Below, piece by piece: positions 31,051-48,090 of a stretch of 64,000 bases of DNA. The notes under the pieces were generated by a model. That model was not told the origin of the DNA and made no database searches. It worked only from the letters and a program-made list of their open reading frames with translations. Each line of letters opens with the position of its first letter. The stretch's first letter is position 1. The translations under genes were made by a program, and so were the position numbers. The stretch is from an uncultured Pseudomonadota bacterium (GTDB taxonomy: Bacteria; Desulfobacterota; Binatia; Binatales; Binataceae), in NCBI GenBank assembly GCA_963805995.1, contig CAWDWL010000005.1, positions 479,509 through 543,508 of the forward strand. The letters run 5' to 3'.

Positions 31051-31200
31051 CCGCAAAGCGAAAATCATTGAACCTGTTTACCGCACAAACGCATTGGGGC
31101 AGAGGCTTCTTCTGTCAAAGCGGGAATAGTTTGACGGGTCAGGAGCACATGCGCATTGGGGCAGAGGCTCTTTGCTGTCATCTCTCTTTATCCTAGCCCT
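31051..31200. repeat. two tandem partial copies (about 85 bp period) of the 5' module of the MITE-like element (AAAGCGAAAAT ... GCACAAACGCATTGGGGCAGAGGC)
   Basis: Direct alignment to 31203-31290 and 43458-43540. Confidence 0.5.
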
Positions 31201-31202
31201 AA

Positions 31203-31372
31203 AAGCGAAAATAACTATACGTCCTGAGCGCACGAACACATTGGCGCAGAGCGCCTTTCTGTCCCCTCTCCTTATCTTAGGAGAGGGCGAGGGAGAGGTT
31301 ACACGCTACGACCCTTGATACACATTTCGCCCTCGGCCCGGCATTTCGCCAACAATCTACCTGAATTATTTT
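31203..31372. mobile_element. MITE-like element copy A (about 170 bp) with 13-bp terminal inverted repeats AAGCGAAAATAAY and an internal CCCTCTCC...GGAGAGGG hairpin
   Basis: 5' end AAAAGCGAAAATAACT and 3' end AATTATTTTCGCTTCAG are inverted complements. The internal sequence is about 85% identical to copy B. Confidence 0.55.
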
Positions 31373-31379
31373 CGCTTCA

Positions 31380-34434: not shown

Positions 34435-36806
34435 ATGCGGAGGATTTTTGTCCCGATTTTGGGATTGTGTGTGATTGCGGGTCTCGTGGGAGGCTCATCG
34501 GCCACTAGCGCCGCTAATAACGCGCAGCCGCAACGCCTGTGGCGGGTACGGTTCAGGATTCGTTGGGCCGTCCGGTGGCGGGCGCGGAGGTCAGCTTGCA
34601 GGCCTCCAACGGTAGGACCGTCGCGAAAGACCCGCAGCGATGCGAAGGGCCGCTTTTCATTTGCTACAGTCAATCCCGGGAATATACGCGGTGACCGCAA
34701 ACAAACAGTCATTCAAGCCCGCGATCAAGATTGCGGCGGTAGAGGCTGGAAGGCCCGCGGAATTGACGCTGGCGATGGCGTCCGAACAGGCGCTTAAGCA
34801 TGACGGTGGTCGCCAAGCGGCTGGACGTGGCGCGCAACAGTCTTTCGCCGCAAACCGGCGGCAGCGTCTATCGCTTCAATGAGCAGTCGATTCATGATCT
34901 GCCGCAGGGCAGCAACACGCCGCTCAACCAGGTGCTCTTGCAGGCGCCGGGCGTAGCGCAGGATTCCTTCGGCCAAATCCACGTGCGCGGCGAGCATGCG
35001 GATCTCCAATACCGAATCAACGGCGTTCAGCTTCCGGAGGGCATCACCGGCTTTGGCCAGGTGCTAAGCCCGCGCTTCGCGCAAAGCCTCAATCTTCTGA
35101 CCGGCGCGCTGCCCGCCGAATACGGTTACCGGACCGCGGGGGTGGTGGACATCCACTCCAAGAGCGGACTGTCGCTTGACGGGGGCGACCTGGACATGTA
35201 CGGCGGCCAGCACAGCACCTTGCAGCCGAGCTTCGAGCTGGGCGGATCGAAGGACAAGCTGGACTACTTCTTCAGCGGCCAGTACCTCCAGAGTCAATTG
35301 GGCGTGGAGCCGCCGACGCCCGGTCCCAGCGCGTACCACGATCAGACCTATCAGGGTCAGGCGTTCAGCTATCTGTCCTATTTCCTTAACCCGACCACAC
35401 GTTTGAGTTTGATCAGCGGCTTCGCGCTAAATCACTTCCAGATTCCGGACAATCCCAATCAGCCGCAGGTCTTCCAGCTTGCGGGCGCGCCATTTTATCC
35501 CTCGGCCAACATCAACGAGAACCAGCTGGAGCAGAATTACTTCGGCGTCCTGTCACTGCAGGGAACGATCGGGGCCAAGTTCGATTATCAACTGTCGGCA
35601 TTCAGCCGTTATTCGACGCTTTCGTTTTACCCGGACGAGATAGGCGATCTGATCTACAACGGCGCCGCTTCGCGGATTTTCCGCAGTAGCTGGTCCAACG
35701 GCCTGCAAGGCGACAGCAGCTATCGCCTCGACGATCAGCATACGATCAGAGCCGGTTTTTGGTTCAGCGGCGAACGGGCGGAAATCGACAATCATGAAAC
35801 GGTTTTTCCCGCCAACCCTGACGGGAGCCAAGCCAGCGAAACGCCGCTTCCACCGATCGTCGACAACCGCGCGATAACCGCGTGGCTCTACGGCATTTAT
35901 ATCCAGGACGAATGGCGTCCGACCGAACAGATCACGATCAACTATGGCACGCGCTTCGACCTTTATGACGGTATCGTGCGCGCCGACCAGGCCAGTCCGC
36001 GGGTCGGCCTGGTCTATAAGCCGTTCAAGCGCACGACGCTTCACGCGGCCTACGCGCGCTACTTCGCGCCACCCCCGACCGAGCTGGTAACCGTCGAAGC
36101 GGTGAACAAATTTGCCGGCACCACCGGCGCGCCACCAACCCCCTATAGCGGCAATCCCTCGCCCGAGCGCTCGCATTACTTCGACGTCGGAGCGCTCCAG
36201 GAACTGCTCCCGGGCCTCCACGTAGGCATCGACGCCTACTACAAGAAGTCCACTGATCTGATTGACGAAGGGCAATTCGGTCCCGCGATCATCTTTTCAA
36301 CATTTAACTATCGAAAGGGCCGAAACTATGGCGTCGAGTTCACCGGCTCATATAACCATAAAAATCTCACTGCATATGCGAACTTTGCGTATGCAGTCGC
36401 CCAGGGAACGCAAGTCGAGTCGGGACAGTTCAATTTCACACCTGCTGAGCTAGCCTACATCGCCAACCACTACGTCTTCCTGGACCACGATCAGACCTTC
36501 ACCTCGTCGGCAGGCGCGGCTTACCAATGGAAGGGATTCAACTTTCTCCTTGATGGCCTGTATCAGAGCGGATTGCGCGAGGGTTTTGCCAACACCCGCA
36601 ACCTGCCTTACTACATCCAGGTCAATGTCGGCGCCACCCGGGAGTTCACGGTGCCCAAGGTGGGCGACCTGCAAGCCCGGATATCGGTGCTTAATCTGTT
36701 CGATCGCACCTATCAAATTCGCGGCGGCAGCGGGATTGGCGTGTTTGCGCCCCAGTTCGGACCCCGGCGCGCACTGTACGCCGGCCTGAAATGGGAGATA
36801 CCATTT
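34435..36806 (+). CDS. TonB-dependent receptor with an N-terminal carboxypeptidase-regulatory-like domain; the N-terminal 360 bp is split over three reading frames and there is no in-frame stop before exbB
   Basis: Signal peptide MRRIFVPILGLCVIAGLVGG (frame 1). CarbopepD segments AGTVQDSLGRPVAGAEVSLQASNGRTVAK (frame 0), TRSDAKGRFSFATVNPG (frame 1) and IYAVTANKQSFKPAIKIAAVEAGRPAELTLAMAS (frame 2). Plug plus barrel from ATG 34800, ending ...GRRALYAGLKWEIPF. Confidence 0.6.
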
Positions 36807-36887
36807 CTCAAGGCGCCACCCGCAATTGGCGCAAACGACCAACTAAACCGAGGGTATCAGCGGATTTTCCTCATTAATGGAGTTGAT

Positions 36888-37562
36888 ATGCATGCACTAC
36901 AAGCAGCGTGGGATACGCTCCGGTACGGCGGGGCGATGGTTTACCCGTTGCTGGTTCTCGGGGTTCTCGCGATAGCCATCATCCTGGATCGTTGCGTGGC
37001 GTACTTTCGATGTTTGCGGCTGCCGGCCGCGCTGGCCAACCTGGTCGAGACCTACGGCTTTTCCTGGGATGAACTCGAAAAGCAGCTTGAACAGCTCGGA
37101 CCCGGCAATGCCTACGGACGGTTCCTGAAGGTAATCGCCGACAATCGAACCGACCCCGCGTGGTGGGTGGAGTCGCGCGCCGGGGATGAAGCCGGCCTCA
37201 TCGAGAAAGTTCTCAATCGCGGACTATGGCTGCTGGAAACCGTGGTCACCGCGGCGCCCCTGATGGGCCTGCTCGGCACCATCACCGGGATGATGGCGGC
37301 ATTCAACGTAATCGGCAGCTCAGGTCTGGTCGCGCCGCATGAGGTGACGGCGGGCGTGGCCCAGGCCTTGATCGCGACCGCGCTGGGCCTGTTCATCGCG
37401 CTGATCTCGCTGTTCGGATTCAACTTCTTCTCGCGGATGCAATCTCACGCGATGGACCGCATGGAACGGCTGGGCTCGCGCCTGGTCGATCATATCCGCC
37501 TGGATCAGGAAAACGCGGCCACCGATCCCGAATCGGCGGTGCGGCGCGTGCAATCGCGATGA
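36888..37562 (+). CDS. exbB: MotA/TolQ/ExbB proton-channel protein
   Basis: Three-transmembrane MotA/ExbB core (LMGLLGTITGMMAAFNVI ... ALIATALGLFIALISLFGFNFF). Own GGAG Shine-Dalgarno plus ATG at 36888. It is in frame with the upstream TonB-dependent receptor ORF. Confidence 0.75.
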   Translation: MHALQAAWDTLRYGGAMVYPLLVLGVLAIAIILDRCVAYFRCLRLPAALANLVETYGFSWDELEKQLEQLGPGNAYGRFLKVIADNRTDPAWWVESRAGDEAGLIEKVLNRGLWLLETVVTAAPLMGLLGTITGMMAAFNVIGSSGLVAPHEVTAGVAQALIATALGLFIALISLFGFNFFSRMQSHAMDRMERLGSRLVDHIRLDQENAATDPESAVRRVQSR

Positions 37563-43191: not shown

Positions 43192-43457
43192 CGGCCTCTC
43201 GAACGATAAAACGATAACCTTCTCGAACTATAAACGAGGACCAAGGCCGTCGTACCCCGGCCATTGGTTAGTTTTGGAGGGCCCTCGATAGCAACGGCCG
43301 CCCCCGCTTGACTCACGTCCATGCCTCGGGCCCTCCGCAGGTACGTTAAAGCAGTATCCATGCCTGCCCGAATCGCTAATCAGACGCTTCTATTCGCAAT
43401 AATCGGCCGAACTCGTACCGCTTTTCGATCAAACAGAACCGCTGCGAAACAATTAGC

Positions 43458-43643
43458 CTAAAGCGAAAATAATTCTGCGCCTTGAGCGCACGAACACCTT
43501 GGCGCAGAGGCGCTTTCTTTTCCCTCTCCTTATCCTAGGAGAGGGCCAGGGAGAGGTTACACGCTACGGTCCACGACACAGATTTCGCTTACGGCCACTG
43601 ATCTCGCGCGAAACCACTACCCAGAATTATTCTCGCTTTGAGC
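43458..43643. mobile_element. MITE-like element copy B (186 bp) with an 18-bp terminal inverted repeat AAAGCGARAATAATTCTG (17 of 18 match)
   Basis: The 5' AAAGCGAAAATAATTCTG and the reverse complement of the 3' end AAAGCGAGAATAATTCTG match, with a single mismatch. The internal module and hairpin match copy A. Confidence 0.6.
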
Positions 43644-43736: not shown

Positions 43737-43910
43737 TTAACCGCTGCGGTTTGTCGCATCAGGTGTATCCATTCGAGACAGTTTCAACTCGGGCATCCGT
43801 GGCAGCGCGTTTGGCGCGTTCGCCATAGACGCGGGGAAGATAGCGGCGCCGCCAGGCCGACGGTCGAGCCGGAGGGCGATATGGGTGTCGAGTAAGAGGC
43901 TATCGCTCAC
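43737..43910 (-). pseudogene. truncated PIN-domain (VapC-like) toxin remnant of 57 codons
   Basis: GTG overlaps the vapB stop in a GTGA arrangement. The N-terminus VSDSLLLDTHIALRLD resembles the PIN N-terminal motif, and the ORF ends after 57 aa, where a VapC would run to about 130. Confidence 0.3.
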
Positions 43911-44161
43911 CGTTCGACTTCCCGGCCGGTCTCGGCATCGGGCTCGACCTCGAGAGCGGGCGCGATGAGGTCCACGCCTTCACGAACCCGCACCGAGCCG
44001 CGATGCGCCCCAAACAGGGAGCCCGCGCGGGCGTTCTGTTCCAGCAGGCGCCGTACGGCCAAAGCGACCGCTTCGGTCTTGTTCCCGCCAGTCAGCCGTT
44101 GGGCTGCTTCTTCGATAAGAGCCACAACCTCCGGACGGCTGATATTTACCACGTTTGCCAT
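43907..44161 (-). CDS. VapB / Rv0623-like (PSK) antitoxin-type small DNA-binding protein
   Basis: 84 aa (MANVVNISRPEVVALIEEAAQRLTGGNKTEAVALAVRRLLEQ), the typical antitoxin fold size, positioned immediately upstream of the PIN remnant. Confidence 0.5.
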   Translation of the reverse strand: MANVVNISRPEVVALIEEAAQRLTGGNKTEAVALAVRRLLEQNARAGSLFGAHRGSVRVREGVDLIAPALEVEPDAETGREVER

Positions 44162-44286
44162 GGCGCAACCTCAAGTCATTATGAAAGTACTTGTTAATGG
44201 GCCATCGCGGCAATGCAAACAGAGCCACCCTATCCCTGGCTCCGCCATAGATAAAACGCCCTGACGCGTCTATCCATTTTGGGTCC

Positions 44287-44342
44287 GGCTAACGAATAAT
44301 CGGCGGGCCATAGATGTGGTACACCATCAAGTGGACAGATGG
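44287..44342. repeat. 55-bp direct repeat R1, a displaced copy of the 3' end of the DUF420 gene
   Basis: About 87% identical to 47651-47707. On the minus strand it encodes ...[14 protein letters not shown] followed by a stop, matching the last 14 of the 17 repeat-encoded C-terminal residues of the DUF420 reading frame. Confidence 0.6.
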
Positions 44343-44548
44343 AAAATCATCAGCAAAAACTAGCTGTTTTTTGTAGCATCGCCGAAAAAGTAGCCGCCAG
44401 GTAAGCAGCCGAACGGGTCCCTCAGCCGGAATGAGCGAGCGCCAACGCGATCAGGACCAGCGCCAGGACGATCGCGGCCAGCACCCATCGGCCGGAAATG
44501 CCAGTGCCCTGACTCCAGACAGGCACCGGATGCCCTTCCCCGCCGAGC

Positions 44549-44827
44549 CTATTCCCCGATTGCCTTTCTGATGGCATCAGCGAGTTTGCGCGCGTCCTGC
44601 ACGGAAAAGGTAAACGACGAGGTGCCTTGTGCGGTGCCCCGCTCGCTAGCGTTATCGTTTTGCGTGCTGAAACTTAGCGTCACGCTTGGGCTGCCAAGCT
44701 CGGAGAATACGGCGATCTGAACCAGATACGTTTCTGCCATTTGGGGCTGGCCCGCAATGTATGCCTCAAGATGTTTCGACGGTTCGATGCAGATTACTTC
44801 CGGAACGGCGGTGACGATCTTTGTCAT
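44549..44827 (-). CDS. hypothetical protein
   Basis: 92-aa ORF with non-random composition. No family recognised. Confidence 0.3.
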   Translation of the reverse strand: MTKIVTAVPEVICIEPSKHLEAYIAGQPQMAETYLVQIAVFSELGSPSVTLSFSTQNDNASERGTAQGTSSFTFSVQDARKLADAIRKAIGE

Positions 44828-45287
44828 AACACCTCCCTATACTACGAGTCGGGCCAAAGTGCGTAGGAGATCCCGACGGTCCGGCGGATCCCGCGCCTGC
44901 CAACCGTGACATGGGCGCCGCGGATCCCGAAGCTCAGGCTCGGCCCGGAAATCGAAAAGTTGACCGAAAGGCCCGGAATGATGCGGACCCGGCGATAGAA
45001 GTGCAGGCCCATCTCACGCCGGCCGGCAATCGAAGCTTAGCGCCTGGCCGCCGCATCGCGGGCAGGCTTCCAGAGCGCAATAGAAGTGGTGAAATTGGCC
45101 CGGTCTGACGCCGCAATCGCGGCAGGCGTCTTTCCCATATCGCGGCCAGTACACGACCCGAGGATAATCCTTTGGGATTCGAGCGGGACCAGAGCCCCGC
45201 AAATTTGAGCGTGGTTACGGTGCAGCCTCCGCCAGCCCGGATAGGGATCCCGCAACAGCGCCAGAGGTTCGGACTTCGGTTTTTCGA

Positions 45288-45560
45288 TCACTTCGCACCG
45301 CGTTTTGGCCGCGGAAGTTGAGCGTTGGCCTGGACGTATTCGCGCAACGCCCGCCGGAGGACCTGGCTGACCGTTTCATCGCGAGCCTTCGCGACCCGCT
45401 CGGCTTGCGCCTTGAGCGACGGGTCGACTCTGAAAATGATATTGCTAGCGGCATGGCTCCGTATATACATTACACGACCGATGCGGCGCAACTTGGTTGA
45501 TTCCCCATTCCAAAGAGGAAGGTCGGAAATGAACCAGGGATTCATCCCCAAACCGAGCAA
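45288..45560 (-). CDS. ribbon-helix-helix (CopG/ParD-like) protein
   Basis: IFRVDPSLKAQAERVAKARDETVSQVLRRALREYV beta-strand plus two helices. The start is probably an internal Met. Confidence 0.5.
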   Translation of the reverse strand: MLGLGMNPWFISDLPLWNGESTKLRRIGRVMYIRSHAASNIIFRVDPSLKAQAERVAKARDETVSQVLRRALREYVQANAQLPRPKRGAK

Positions 45561-46401
45561 CGATAAGCGAGCGCCCAGCGGGGCAGGCAGTGAGGTTTGT
45601 TGATATGAATATCTTCGCCGAACAGGTTTGCCGCCATAGCCGCTTTTGCAACCGCGTCAGAAACCAGGTCCAGAAACGGTTGTTAAAACGCCGCCGCCGG
45701 CGCGCAGAAAAATTCGAGCCGGAAAACGCCCCAACTAAAAACCGCTATCGCGGATGGAGCGATTAGCCGAAACAGGTAAAGGCCGAACCCCCAAGAGCCC
45801 GAGCCTTTTGAACAGAGTCTCGGGGTTTTCTTTTGAGACATTCTTGCAGTTTTATGATCGATAAAACCGGCGCCTCATGATCCATAACCCGCCCCGAAAC
45901 CCACCGAGGTTATTATCGATAATCCGCCCGGAAATCGCTCGCCTGATGCCCTGCCGGTGCGCCAGGAGCCGTCCGGCGATGAGCCCGCCTATATATCGCT
46001 CGCGAAAGGCGAAAGCGAAAGGCCCGTTGAGCCCGGCCGAGCGCCGCGGGGCCGGGCACTGTCCTGAATGGGGGCTGAGTGCCCTAATTTGAACGGATGG
46101 TCTTTGTCATACCGTTGGACCTCTGTAGTTACGGCGACTGCGCCGCTCCACGATAATTATCAAGATTACAGCGGGACTCAAAATCACGTAAGCAATAAGA
46201 ATGCGTTGCCAATGGGTAAAACGCCAGCCTAAAAAGAACGCAAAAACAAACACGCCGACTATACTGAGCGCGGTGACGAGCTGGGCCGCCATCGGGGGCT
46301 TCATCGATTGTTTGTTCTGGCCGCTCATTCGCACTTGCCGCAATGCCACCTTTACAACTTCGCGTGTCCTAATTTCCAGCCCTCAGTCCTAAAGTCGGAC
46401 A

Positions 46402-46725
46402 GTGCTCGAGGCCGAAGCTAAACAGGCCGCCGCCGATGGTGGGGCTACTTCCCGGCCAAGTTTGGCCGGGAAAGTAGCCCCTGGCCGCACCGAGCGACAG
46501 GCCAAAAAAACCGGCCGGCCAGCGAAACCCGAGCCGGATGCGCTAGGCGAACTATCAGCCCTTGAGCGCGGGATGCACACCATCGGCAGGGATAACAAAG
46601 AGACCCTGCGCGAATACGCCACAAAAGCCGGCGCAAAACACGAGACGATTAAACATCAAGCACGAGCGGCCCAGGTAGCCCGCAGGGTAAACGTTTACCC
46701 GGCCGAAGCAATCGGTTTTGAATGA
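46402..46725 (+). CDS. hypothetical protein, followed by an overlapping 62-aa ORF (46718..46906)
   Basis: ORFs only. They lie in a lower-GC accessory patch. Confidence 0.25.
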   Translation: MLEAEAKQAAADGGATSRPSLAGKVAPGRTERQAKKTGRPAKPEPDALGELSALERGMHTIGRDNKETLREYATKAGAKHETIKHQARAAQVARRVNVYPAEAIGFE

Positions 46726-47650
46726 AGCGCAAGCCGCAGAGGTCCCCCGAGCGTTCGCCCACATGAGCGCACTGCAGCTAATCGAGCATTTCCGACGACT
46801 TACCGAAATCCACGCGGCGCCGCCTTGGCTATGGCCGGCGTTGGTTGCCGAGATGATCGAGCGCGAATGGACCGTCGAGCAGGCCCGCGCGCGCGAAGCC
46901 CTATGACGGCGGGGGGCTACTTTCGCCGCGGCTGCCGCGGAGAATTAGCCCCGTTAGCCTTGGCCGCGGCTTCGGCCCGAGCCGGTTTAGCGGCCGCCTG
47001 AGCCTCGGCGGCGACCCGTTTGTTTTCGGCATGTTCGACGGGACCGGAACCGGAGCCCTTCAATCCCCTAACCGGGGAATCGTCCACTGGAACTTCAAGT
47101 ACAGCCGCACTCAGGCGTTGTGCTCGAATTCTTCACTCCCATAACCGAGGAATCGTCCACTGGAACCGCGACGATTGTGCAACAAAATCCGCAGTCGTTT
47201 CCAGGCACGCGCCGGATCTTTTTCGCAAGCGCCGATTTTGCGCCCAACCCCCTCCGATTTGCGAAAACCTTCTACCGCGCGGCCGCCGGAAACGCCCCTG
47301 GGCGCCGCCGGATCCGCCGGCGCGAAACCCATTCCCCCGGATTTCGCCCAAGACCCGGCATAGGCGCCCGCCCCGCTTAGCCGGCGGTGCGGTTTTGAAG
47401 GGTCAGACCTGGCGCAACGCCGCCCGCAGGCGCTCCTCGAGCCGCTCGACCTCGGCCCGGTAGCGCAGAAAGCGCCGCATCCTCGTGTCGACTCGCGCGA
47501 TCGCGGCGCCAACCCATGCTTCCGAATGACCGACCGCAAACGCGATCAGAGTCCGGGAATACGATTGGCCAGGTATGAGCCGACCGCGAGCGCTTCGTCA
47601 TCGGCGCTCGCTCGAGCTCCGGCATCAGCGGTGCGAGGCTCGCAGCGACT

Positions 47651-47707
47651 CGGCTAACGAATAATCGGCGGGCCGTAGATGTGATAGACCATCAGGTACA
47701 CGATTAC
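47651..47707. repeat. 55-bp direct repeat R2, the native 3' coding end of the DUF420 gene
   Basis: See R1. It encodes ...[17 protein letters not shown] followed by a stop on the minus strand. Confidence 0.6.
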
Positions 47708-48090
47708 TCCGGTCACCGATACGTACATCCATATCGGCCAGGTCCAGCGGGCGATGCGGCGATGCGGTCGAAGCGCGCGCGCAGCGCGCGCGACAGGGTG
47801 ATGATTGCCAGTGGGACGGTGGTTACCGCCAGGATGATGTGCGAGATCAGAATCGTGAAGTAAACCGGTCTGACGGCGCCGCGGCCCTGAAAGCGAACGT
47901 CGCCGACCTGGATATGATAAGCGACGTAGCAGACCAGAAAAACCACGGAGACGGCGAACGCGATGAGCATGCAGATGCGATGGGCGGCGATTTGGCGCCG
48001 GCGGATGAAGTAAAAGCCCGCGCCCAGGAAGACCGCCGCGATTGCGTTGAGGCTCGCGTTTACCGTCGCCAGTAGCGGAACCGAAGACAA
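47654..48090 (-). CDS. DUF420 family membrane protein (cytochrome oxidase associated) with an apparent -1 frameshift near 47760
   Basis: Three transmembrane helices in the 47713..48090 ORF. The fourth helix ([24 protein letters not shown]) continues in the -1 frame to a stop at 47654. Adding a single base after ...RFDR restores a reading ...[16 protein letters not shown]. Confidence 0.55.

What the first reader, a model, noticed from the sequence alone, without database searches (positions are those of the whole stretch)
44285..47707. 55-bp direct repeats encoding the same protein C-terminus with only synonymous changes: footprint of an element integrated at the 3' end of the DUF420 gene
R2 (47651-47707) is the last 17 codons plus stop of the DUF420 gene on the minus strand (...[17 protein letters not shown]). 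R1 (44287-44342), 3.3 kb away, encodes ...[14 protein letters not shown] on the same strand, and its nucleotide differences inside the shared codons are all third-position synonymous (GTG/GTC, TAC/TAT, TAT/TAC). Such attL/attR-like duplication of a gene 3' end is the classic signature of site-specific integration, as seen for tRNA-targeting islands.

The bounded segment is lower in GC and low in coding density. It carries an RHH protein and small ORFs but no integrase, so the element appears degraded. The vapB/vapC remnant and MITE copy B lie just beyond R1.
Basis: partly seen in the sequence, partly recalled or inferred. Interest (0 to 1): 0.7.

Follow-up and report, generated by a model that had tools for sequence, protein, structure and literature searches.

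The report
Small mobile insert at ctaM gene end
A 3.3-kb piece of accessory DNA sits just after a cytochrome-oxidase assembly gene in an uncultured soil bacterium, flanked by two copies of the gene's last 47 bases; this is a familiar kind of site-specific insertion, here without its own integrase and at a target gene not reported before.

Summary
The repeat is real: 47 nt at 44286-44332 and 47651-47697, 91% identical, with an exact 24-nt core that no shuffle reproduced. R2 is the true 3' end of a DUF420 (CtaM-type) gene of a Candidatus Binataceae genome.

Two near-identical relatives (L002, L087) carry one copy of the repeat, so the window holds a precisely bounded 3,365-bp extra segment. An independent assembly (L102) has the same insert. 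L088 and L100 carry a different, smaller insert each between copies of the same repeat. L001, L085 and L089 carry three to four copies in tandem, separating cassettes unrelated to the window's insert. Unrelated cassettes share a short motif just upstream of the distal repeat that the gene lacks.

No integrase was found in any cassette, nor among the larger ORFs of the window. The best reading is site-specific integration and tandem accretion of small non-autonomous elements, like the known cis-mobilizable elements.

- GC is not lower (0.603 against 0.609).
- The DUF420 gene has a 1-nt frameshift in this window only.
- The insert diverges in step with its flanks, so "empty" strains may be secondary losses.

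The cargo is small: an RHH protein, a DUF4236 fragment, a locus-restricted 92-aa protein and an unverified CRISPR-like repeat pair.

The parts
47651..47697 (-). R2, the gene-proximal att copy (attL-like): last 13 codons, the stop codon (47654-47656) and 3 nt after it of the DUF420 gene. Identical over all 47 nt to the single copy in the empty-site relatives.
44286..44332 (-). R1, the distal att copy (attR-like): 4 synonymous differences in its 5' 23 nt, an identical 3' 24-nt core (44286-44309), then the same downstream flank as in the empty-site relatives.
44331..44346 (-). Arm motif TTTTCCATCTGTCCAC just upstream of R1. It is absent from the gene but shared, with variation, by the distal copies of unrelated cassettes in L001, L088, L089 and L102.
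44333..47650 (.). Inserted segment proper (3,318 bp). Absent from L002 and L087; present at 97.8% identity in L102. Both of its ends are homologous to a 1.2-kb insert in L088.
47654..48090 (-). DUF420 / CtaM-type gene, last gene of a cox cluster. It has a 1-nt deletion frameshift at 47755/47756 in this window only. The repaired product is 145 aa.
44549..44827 (-). 92-aa ORF with a strong Shine-Dalgarno sequence. Four homologue clusters were found; every one whose contig was read lies between DUF420 and the sigma-54 regulator gene. Function unknown.
44422..44577 (-). 51-aa ORF with a hydrophobic C-terminal stretch; possibly a small membrane protein.
   Evidence: sequence only
44842..45012 (-). 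DUF4236 N-terminal domain ORF (56 aa). Also present in L088, directly after its single 36-nt repeat.
45014..45202 (-). 62-aa Cys-rich ORF that looks like a zinc ribbon; only weak family hits.
45288..45470 (-). Ribbon-helix-helix (CopG/Arc-like) protein. Homologues lie in the L100 insert, in L103, and as a paralogue at another genomic site (L107).
46107..46349 (-). 80-aa predicted membrane ORF with no family.
46402..46906 (+). Two overlapping ORFs (107 aa and 62 aa) without any family. L102 has the same frame arrangement. A 41-nt palindrome lies at 46441-46481.
47058..47166 (-). CRISPR-like pair: two 36-nt repeats (47058-47093 and 47131-47166, 3 mismatches) around a 37-nt unique spacer. The repeat folds into a small hairpin followed by ATTGAAG. 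L088 has a single copy.
47167..47318 (-). Flank of the 36-nt repeats, conserved at about 83% in L088. It would be a leader if the repeats are transcribed on the minus strand.
43737..44161 (-). vapB (84 aa, 43907-44161) and a truncated vapC (43737-43910) just beyond R1. An intact vapBC follows an att copy in L001, L085 and L089.
43457..43643 (.). MITE-like insertion with 22-nt terminal inverted repeats and a TAA target duplication. Absent from L001, L002, L087 and L102. A second copy lies at 31202-31377.

Best explanation
The segment 44333-47650 is a small, integrase-less integrated element sitting in an attachment site formed by the last roughly 45 bases of the DUF420 (CtaM-type) gene of a Candidatus Binataceae genome.

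Inferred mechanism: a recombinase encoded elsewhere joins an element-borne site to the chromosomal site. The element-borne site consists of an arm motif plus a mimic of the gene's 3' end. Strand exchange falls somewhere inside the shared 47 bases. The gene therefore keeps a complete coding end (R2), and a second copy (R1) marks the far border of the insert.

Repeated use of the gene-proximal site stacks elements in tandem (accretion) and pushes older ones outward, where they decay. The vapB and truncated vapC just beyond R1 may be such an older layer.

The element cannot move on its own. It is either a decayed remnant or a cis/trans-mobilizable cassette.

Shown: the repeats, the precise presence/absence polymorphism, tandem arrays of the same repeat, the shared arm motif, and the absence of an integrase locally. 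Inferred: the recombinase, the exact crossover point, and whether the polymorphism reflects gain or loss.
For: 1. The repeat is far beyond chance.

2. Empty site. L002 1-11549 matches window 59198-47651 (99.2%), and L002 11506-12190 matches window 44329-43644 (96.9%). One repeat copy therefore replaces repeat + 3,318 bp + repeat. L087 is the same.

3. An independent assembly from another sample, L102, has the same insert with both repeats (97.8%). This rules out a misassembly.

4. Other haplotypes use the same site.
- L088 has a 1.2-kb insert between two copies.
- L100 has a 1.7-kb insert carrying hicAB and an RHH gene between two copies.
- L089 has three copies, and L001 and L085 four, separating cassettes of 0.7, 0.7 and (in L001/L085) 2.6 kb with unrelated content.

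5. Distal copies of unrelated cassettes share the motif TTTYCCATCT-GTSSAC just upstream of the gene homology. The gene itself has a different sequence there. The same kind of conserved motif upstream of the direct repeat was described for Dehalococcoides ssrA islands (PMC3146451).

6. Three of R1's four variant nucleotides occur as alleles of DUF420 in relatives: GTG in L001 and L088, TAC in L088, TAT in L004 and L103. That explains the purely synonymous pattern: the mimic descends from a functional allele of another host.

7. The window's closest relatives by flank identity (L001 99.7%, L002 99.2%, L089 98.3%) lack this insert, while more distant ones (L102 96.6%, L088 about 88%) carry it or a relative. 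Content at the site turns over faster than the flanks diverge.

8. Cargo such as toxin-antitoxin modules is usual for accessory DNA; the known model of decay to CIMEs and accretion is in PMC5704250.
Against: - No integrase or other recombinase was found in any cassette, within 10 kb on either side in the relatives (precomputed Pfam), or among about 40 larger ORFs of the window. A regex for the tyrosine-recombinase C-terminal motif also found nothing credible.
- No autonomous relative carrying the same att mimic was found. Three viral scans and one metagenome scan with att patterns gave 0, and BLAST of the insert against phages and plasmids gave nothing.
- Composition is the same as the host.
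- The insert is about as diverged between window and L088 (83-92%) as the flanks are (87-92%). The 92-aa gene is found only at this locus. Both fit long residence and vertical descent. The polymorphism could then come from deletion between the repeats by homologous recombination, with no current site-specific activity.
- The copy-3 and copy-4 regions of L001 are homologous for about 480 nt beyond the repeat, which a simple att x att event does not predict.
Confidence: 0.72

Rival explanations
1. A recombination hotspot with no active site-specific system. One old event duplicated the gene's 3' end. Everything seen since is homologous recombination: deletions between the 47-nt repeats, and replacement of the whole inter-gene block by DNA from related strains through crossovers in the conserved flanks (the cox genes and the sigma-54 regulator gene).
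For: - Insert and flanks are about equally diverged between window and L088.
- The 92-aa gene occurs only at this locus.
- Identity to L002 falls from 99.2% on the cox side to 93.2% on the other side of the site, a recombination breakpoint.
- No recombinase was found.
- Homology of 480 nt lies beyond copies 3 and 4 in L001.
Against: - Up to four repeat copies bound cassettes of unrelated content, and unrelated cassettes share an arm motif that is not part of the gene. One old duplication followed by homologous recombination does not produce new cassettes each ending in the same roughly 65-nt unit.
- L100, a lineage whose DUF420 protein is 92% identical, has its own repeat pair with its own allele (ATAATTCGCTGAG in both copies). 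That points to a separate event in that lineage.
Confidence: 0.17
2. An integron-like cassette platform. Small cassettes, each ending in a roughly 65-nt recombination site, are inserted one after another at the end of the DUF420 gene by a dedicated recombinase encoded elsewhere, as a regular way of collecting accessory genes.
For: - Arrays of two to four repeat copies bound short cassettes of 0.7-3.4 kb.
- A shared unit ends each cassette.
- The cargo includes toxin-antitoxin modules (vapBC, hicAB) and a weak HEPN-like protein, as in chromosomal integron arrays.
Against: - No intI-like gene lies next to the array.
- The repeat units do not fold into a shared hairpin as attC sites do: z-scores run from +0.5 to -2.3 with different structures.
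- Cassettes hold several genes in both orientations, or none at all (E2 of L001).
- The site does not fit the GTTRRRY core (sequence).
Confidence: 0.07
3. An assembly artefact: a repeat-induced chimeric join in a metagenome-assembled contig.
For: The related assemblies, and probably this window, contain indel errors: broken cox genes in L087, L089 and L100, the DUF420 frameshift, and a fused TonB-receptor/ExbB ORF here.
Against: L102 shows the same insert with both junctions in an independent assembly from a different sample. L088 has a related insert at the same site. A 47-nt repeat is far too short to mislead long-contig assembly.
Confidence: 0.02

Closest known systems
Cis-mobilizable elements (CIMEs) and tandem accretion at gene 3' ends (ICESt1/ICESt3-related elements of Streptococcus thermophilus; Pavlovic 2004 and Bellanger 2011, as reviewed in PMC5704250)
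   Same: - The target is the 3' end of a gene (a protein-coding one in the Streptococcus case, by my recollection).
- The elements are flanked by att repeats that include the gene end.
- The elements lack integration and transfer genes.
- Several elements are stacked in tandem, sharing att sites.
   Different: - No related autonomous element (ICE or IME) with an integrase is known for this site.
- The elements are much smaller (0.7-3.4 kb).
- The host is an uncultured Binataceae and the target is a DUF420/CtaM-type gene.
- Mobilization has not been shown.
Dehalococcoides ssrA-specific genomic islands (PMC3146451)
   Same: - Multiple tandem islands lie downstream of one single-copy gene, each bounded by a direct repeat of that gene's 3' end.
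- A conserved motif lies just upstream of each repeat and does not align with the gene.
- Some islands lack the integration module and were proposed to be cis-mobilizable.
   Different: - There the target is the tmRNA gene and the repeat is 20 bp.
- Sixteen of those islands carry a serine-recombinase integration module (dsiB). None was found here.
- Those islands are larger.
Genomic islands and prophages integrated in tRNA or tmRNA gene 3' ends
   Different: The target here is a protein-coding gene, so the mimic shows synonymous variation. No integrase lies next to the gene-proximal repeat, and there is no compositional contrast with the host.
Mini-CRISPR arrays and solitary repeat units on mobile elements (PMC6858448, PMC10651486, PMC11656645)
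   Same: - The window has two 36-nt repeats around a 37-nt unique spacer.
- The related insert in L088 has a single repeat.
- A flank is conserved between the two, there are no cas genes nearby, and the repeats sit inside accessory DNA.
   Different: - No matching CRISPR array or cas locus was found, and no protospacer.
- Two repeats is the bare minimum.
- Transcription and any function are untested.

Membership tests
Site-specifically integrated element (genomic island / IME type) | Direct repeats (attL/attR) that duplicate part of the target, here the 3' end of a gene | tested here: met
   47-nt repeat with a 24-nt exact core; 0 matches in 100 shuffles
Site-specifically integrated element (genomic island / IME type) | Close relatives with an unoccupied site carrying one copy of the repeat | tested here: met
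   L002 and L087
Site-specifically integrated element (genomic island / IME type) | Integrase (tyrosine or serine recombinase) gene encoded within the element | tested here: not met
   No hit in Pfam, PHROGs or PADLOC for the element's ORFs; none among the window's larger ORFs or within 10 kb in relatives; motif regex found nothing credible
Site-specifically integrated element (genomic island / IME type) | Excision to a circular form carrying attP | not testable with these tools
   Needs raw reads or PCR
Cis-mobilizable element (CIME) | Retains attL and attR but lacks integration and transfer genes | tested here: met
   definition in PMC5704250
Cis-mobilizable element (CIME) | Occurs in tandem (accretion) with other elements that share the same att site | tested here: met
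   L001 and L085 have four copies and L089 three. In the window, a vapB / truncated vapC layer follows R1
Cis-mobilizable element (CIME) | Derived from, and mobilizable by, a related autonomous ICE or IME of the same integration specificity | tested here: inconclusive
   No such element was found in the loci reached or in the viral, metagenome, phage or plasmid searches. Whole genomes could not be scanned.
Integron gene cassette | Adjacent intI integrase and attI site | tested here: not met
   Neighbours are cox genes and a sigma-54 regulator gene
Integron gene cassette | attC site that folds into an imperfect hairpin with RYYYAAC / GTTRRRY core sites | tested here: not met
   No shared stable hairpin in four repeat units on either strand; GTTAGCC does not fit GTTRRRY
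Xer-dependent integrative element (IMEX) | Integration at the chromosomal dif site, at the replication terminus | tested here: not met
   Cumulative GC skew falls steadily through 38-54 kb with no turning point. The site is a gene's coding end; absence of a dif-like sequence was judged by eye only.
IS / MITE insertion | Terminal inverted repeats and a short target-site duplication | tested here: not met
   No inverted repeats at the ends of the 3.3-kb insert, and a 47-nt imperfect repeat is not a target duplication. The separate 187-bp MITE at 43457-43643 does meet this.
CRISPR (mini-)array | Direct repeats of 23-47 nt separated by unique spacers of similar length | tested here: met
   Two 36-nt repeats and a 37-nt spacer with sharp boundaries. 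This is the minimum possible array.
CRISPR (mini-)array | The repeat matches that of a CRISPR-Cas system in the host or its relatives | tested here: inconclusive
   0 hits in viral and metagenome scans, Rfam, phages and plasmids. No cas gene among the window ORFs scanned.
CRISPR (mini-)array | The spacer matches a mobile element | tested here: inconclusive
   No match in the 107 loci or in viral contigs, where only exact half-spacers were searched
DUF420 / CtaM family (the target gene) | Full-length match to PF04238, in a cytochrome oxidase gene cluster | tested here: met
   E=2e-46, profile positions 1-129 of 130; it follows COX2-COX1-CtaA-CtaB-COX3-COX3-COX4; role of CtaM in PMC8239418

The most novel reading that the evidence does not exclude
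The end of the DUF420 gene in these Binataceae is a dedicated cassette-capture site. Very small cassettes (0.7-3.4 kb) each end in a roughly 65-nt unit made of an arm motif plus a mimic of the gene end. A recombinase encoded elsewhere in the genome inserts, stacks and removes them. This would be an integron-like platform that works without attC hairpins or an adjacent integrase. One cassette family would carry a leader plus a solitary CRISPR repeat that has gained a spacer in the window's lineage, that is, a mobile mini-array or RNA anti-CRISPR.
Probability: 0.08. Interest if true: 0.7.

Novelty: new member of a known kind. Interest (0 to 1): 0.35.

Why it matters
It adds a target gene (DUF420/CtaM-type, at the end of a cytochrome oxidase cluster) and a phylum known only from metagenomes to the list of protein-gene 3' ends used as integration sites. 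It also gives a clean natural series at one site: empty, single insert, and tandem arrays of up to four repeat copies.

In practice it marks a strain-variable hotspot that could be used to type Binataceae populations and to hunt for the missing recombinase. If the small cassettes prove to be moved in trans, or the 36-nt repeats prove to be a mobile mini-CRISPR, the locus would be more interesting. Neither is shown.

Tried and rejected
- **att core in collections.** The exact 21-mer gave 0 hits in viral and metagenome contigs. A degenerate 36-mer for any DUF420 end of this clade gave 0 in viral contigs.
- **BLAST of the whole insert** against phages and plasmids: no match.
- **DUF420 ends across genomes.** I scanned 68 of the 80 loci returned for DUF420 relatives for duplicated 3' ends. 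Only L004 and L005 share the YHIYGPPI(I/L)R tail, and neither has a convincing second copy. L005 has a 17-nt exact match 7.1 kb downstream beside a transposase fragment, possibly chance.
- **Population of the L004-type species** (10 contigs): uniform, no duplication.
- **Integrase search.** Pfam, PHROGs and PADLOC on all small ORFs, Pfam on about 40 larger window ORFs, and a C-terminal motif regex found nothing credible.
- **The 92-aa protein.** AlphaFold gave pLDDT 63 and no PDB fold match (best E 0.18). A profile search of 1.84 billion representatives found essentially only itself.
- **RHH homologues.** One lies at an unrelated genomic site (L107) with no att copy, so it says nothing about mobility.
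- **CRISPR-like repeats.** Rfam, viral, metagenome, phage and plasmid searches, and spacer searches, were all negative.
- **attC-like folding of the repeat units:** not supported.
- **Compositional contrast:** none.
- **Promoter and terminator scan:** uninformative.
- **C-terminal cassette swapping, as in orphan toxin modules.** Considered and rejected: the repeat ends at the stop codon and encodes no alternative C-terminus.


Full report
**1. The observation**

The region holds a direct repeat of 47 nt (44286-44332 and 47651-47697, 91% identical, 3,365 nt start to start). Its 24-nt core CGGCTAACGAATAATCGGCGGGCC occurs exactly twice in the window and never in 100 shuffles.

Read on the minus strand, both copies encode [13 protein letters not shown] followed by TAG. 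The four nucleotide differences inside these codons are all synonymous (CTG/TTG, GTC/GTG, TAT/TAC, TAC/TAT). Two codons further upstream one change is synonymous and one is not, and similarity ends there. The repeat is therefore about 47 nt rather than 55.

R2 is the end of a DUF420 gene (PF04238, E=2e-46 on the repaired protein). It is the last gene of a COX2-COX1-CtaA-CtaB-COX3-COX3-COX4 cluster. DUF420 proteins of the CtaM type are needed for assembly of active cytochrome oxidase (PMC8239418).

In this window the gene has a 1-nt deletion between 47755 and 47756 ('gaccgcat' against 'gaccagcat' in L002). The longest ORF (125 aa) therefore leaves the frame before R2. The gene is intact (145 aa) in L001, L002, L087, L088 and L102. 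Several related assemblies have many broken genes, so a consensus error is likely.

R1 is not part of any ORF of 30 aa or more.

**2. Origin of the window and its relatives**

DUF420 relatives place the window in Candidatus Binataceae. The nearest species representative has an 88% identical protein, and sources name the close proteins Binataceae. The window's own frameshifted 125-aa ORF probably corresponds to a 125-aa entry (99% identical) on a 608-kb contig (P0065).

Exact-protein look-ups of neighbouring genes, and then of close DUF420 proteins, gave long contigs from related strains.

**3. The decisive comparison**

- L002 matches window 59198-47651 at 99.2% up to and including the repeat. 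It then continues directly with window 44329-43644 at 96.9%.
- L087 is the same. These strains carry one repeat copy where the window has repeat + 3,318 bp + repeat.
- The single copy is identical over 47 nt to R2, and its downstream flank is the flank of R1.
- L102, an independent assembly from another sample, has the same insert with both repeats at 97.8%. The structure is therefore not an assembly artefact.

**4. A site used many times**

| Locus | What lies after the DUF420 gene |
|---|---|
| L002, L087 | one repeat copy, no insert |
| window, L102 | 3.3-kb insert between two copies |
| L088 (DUF420 protein 95% identical) | 1.2-kb insert between two copies |
| L100 (92%) | 1.7-kb insert with hicAB and an RHH gene, between two copies of its own allele |
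| L089 | three copies; cassettes of 0.7 and 0.7 kb |
| L001, L085 | four copies; cassettes of 0.7, 0.7 and 2.6 kb |

- The L088 insert is homologous to the two ends of the window's insert (window 47428-47060 and 45010-44333).
- In L001/L085 the first cassette holds a 74-aa ORF. The third holds an intact vapBC, a 246-aa protein and a 165-aa protein with a weak HEPN-like match.
- The last copy in L001 is followed by the same vapB and truncated vapC as R1 in the window.
- More distant contigs keep the 92-aa gene (L103, L104-L106) or the RHH gene (L103) between DUF420 and the sigma-54 regulator gene.
- The neighbouring species (L004 and ten population contigs) has a hicB-like gene there and no second repeat.

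**5. Features of the repeat unit**

Distal copies of unrelated cassettes share TTTYCCATCT-GTSSAC immediately upstream of the gene homology. The gene itself has ...GGAGTAATCGTGTAC at that position. The Dehalococcoides ssrA islands show the same kind of conserved motif upstream of each direct repeat (PMC3146451).

Three of R1's four variant bases are real alleles of DUF420 in relatives. The 'only synonymous' pattern then has a simple explanation: the mimic descends from a functional gene end in another host.

The units do not fold into a shared hairpin. The site is not at a GC-skew turning point.

**6. What is missing**

No integrase or other recombinase was detected:
- not in the insert or the other cassettes;
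- not within 10 kb on either side in relatives;
- not among about 40 larger ORFs of the window, which encode hopanoid and isoprenoid synthesis, lipoate metabolism and other housekeeping functions;
- not by a motif regex.

No autonomous relative was found in viral, metagenome, phage or plasmid collections.

GC content equals that of the host (0.603 against 0.609).

**7. Gain or loss?**

Between window and L088 the insert is 83-92% identical, and the flanks 87-92%. The 92-aa gene occurs only at this locus. This fits long residence, so the empty strains may have lost the insert by precise excision or by deletion between the repeats.

On the other hand, the window's closest relatives by flank identity (L001, L002, L089) have different content at the site. 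Identity to L002 also drops from 99.2% to 93.2% across it. The site therefore turns over and is a recombination breakpoint.

**8. Cargo of the window's insert**

- A 92-aa protein of unknown fold (pLDDT 63, no PDB match).
- A DUF4236 N-terminal fragment.
- A Cys-rich 62-aa ORF.
- An RHH protein.
- Two small predicted membrane ORFs.
- Two overlapping family-less ORFs with the same frame arrangement in L102.
- Four copies of the 11-mer RAAGTAGCCSC, against 0.11 expected for the whole window.
- A CRISPR-like pair of 36-nt repeats around a 37-nt spacer. L088 has a single repeat with a conserved flank.

Every attempt to link the 36-nt repeat or the spacer to a CRISPR system or a target failed. It remains a lead, comparable in form to mini-arrays and solitary repeat units on mobile elements (PMC6858448, PMC10651486).

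**9. Verdict**

The best explanation (about 0.7) is site-specific integration and tandem accretion of small non-autonomous elements at the 3' end of a DUF420 (CtaM-type) gene. This is the pattern known from CIMEs at gene 3' ends (PMC5704250) and from the Dehalococcoides ssrA islands. The main rival (about 0.17) is that only homologous recombination acts today on an old footprint.

This is a new member of a known kind. Interest is moderate to low unless the recombinase or the CRISPR-like part proves unusual.

Noticed in passing
window 47755/47756 (DUF420 gene 47654-48090, minus strand): A 1-nt deletion relative to L001, L002, L087, L088 and L102 shifts the frame, so the called ORF is 125 aa instead of 145 aa. 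It is probably a consensus error of the assembly, but it could be a real pseudogene.
   Followed up: partly
window 34800-37562 (+): A 920-aa ORF joins a TonB-dependent receptor to an ExbB/MotA domain. In L002 these are two separate genes (746 and 224 aa). This is another probable indel or lost stop codon in the window's sequence.
   Followed up: no
window 43457-43643; second copy 31202-31377; partial copy 31055-31106: A 187-bp MITE-like element with 22-nt terminal inverted repeats (GCCTAAAGCGAAAATAATTCTG) and a TAA target duplication. It is inserted between the truncated vapC and the sigma-54 regulator gene in the window only; L001, L002, L087 and L102 lack it. Similar pieces also occur in L107.
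   Followed up: partly
window 47058-47166 and flank 47167-47318; L088 10900-10940: Two 36-nt repeats around a 37-nt spacer, each with a hairpin plus an ATTGAAG tail, like a minimal CRISPR array. The related insert in L088 has one repeat and a conserved flank. No database support was found for a cognate CRISPR system or a target.
   Followed up: partly
window 44387, 46441, 46471, 46913 (and 52145): The 11-mer RAAGTAGCCSC occurs 5 times in the window (0.11 expected), 4 of them inside the insert. Two of those form a 41-nt palindrome at 46441-46481 inside a putative ORF. It may be a protein-binding site; its function is unknown.
   Followed up: partly
window 43644-35010 versus 59198-47651, compared with L002: Identity to L002 is 99.2% on the cox side of the site but 93.2% on the sigma-54 side. 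With L001 the figures are 99.7% and 98.5%. The insertion site coincides with a recombination breakpoint between strains.
   Followed up: no
L001 12983-13453 and 15599-16074: Two paralogous 'repeat + vapB + start of vapC' blocks, 90% identical, lie in one array: the first with an intact vapC, the second truncated. In L089 only the intact version is present, next to the sigma-54 regulator gene. The history (element capture of flanking DNA, or recombination between lineages) was not resolved.
   Followed up: partly
L005 10415-10431 and 17572-17588: In a relative with a 77% identical DUF420 protein, a 17-nt exact copy of the gene end (GGCCCGCCGCTGATCAG) lies 7.1 kb downstream, beside an rve-type transposase fragment. 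It could be another island border or chance.
   Followed up: no
L004 11033-11242; L090-L099; L100 10591-10994: A hicB-like antitoxin gene (with hicA in L100) occupies the same position after DUF420 in neighbouring species. In L100 it lies inside a repeat-bounded insert; in L004 no distal repeat is detectable.
   Followed up: partly
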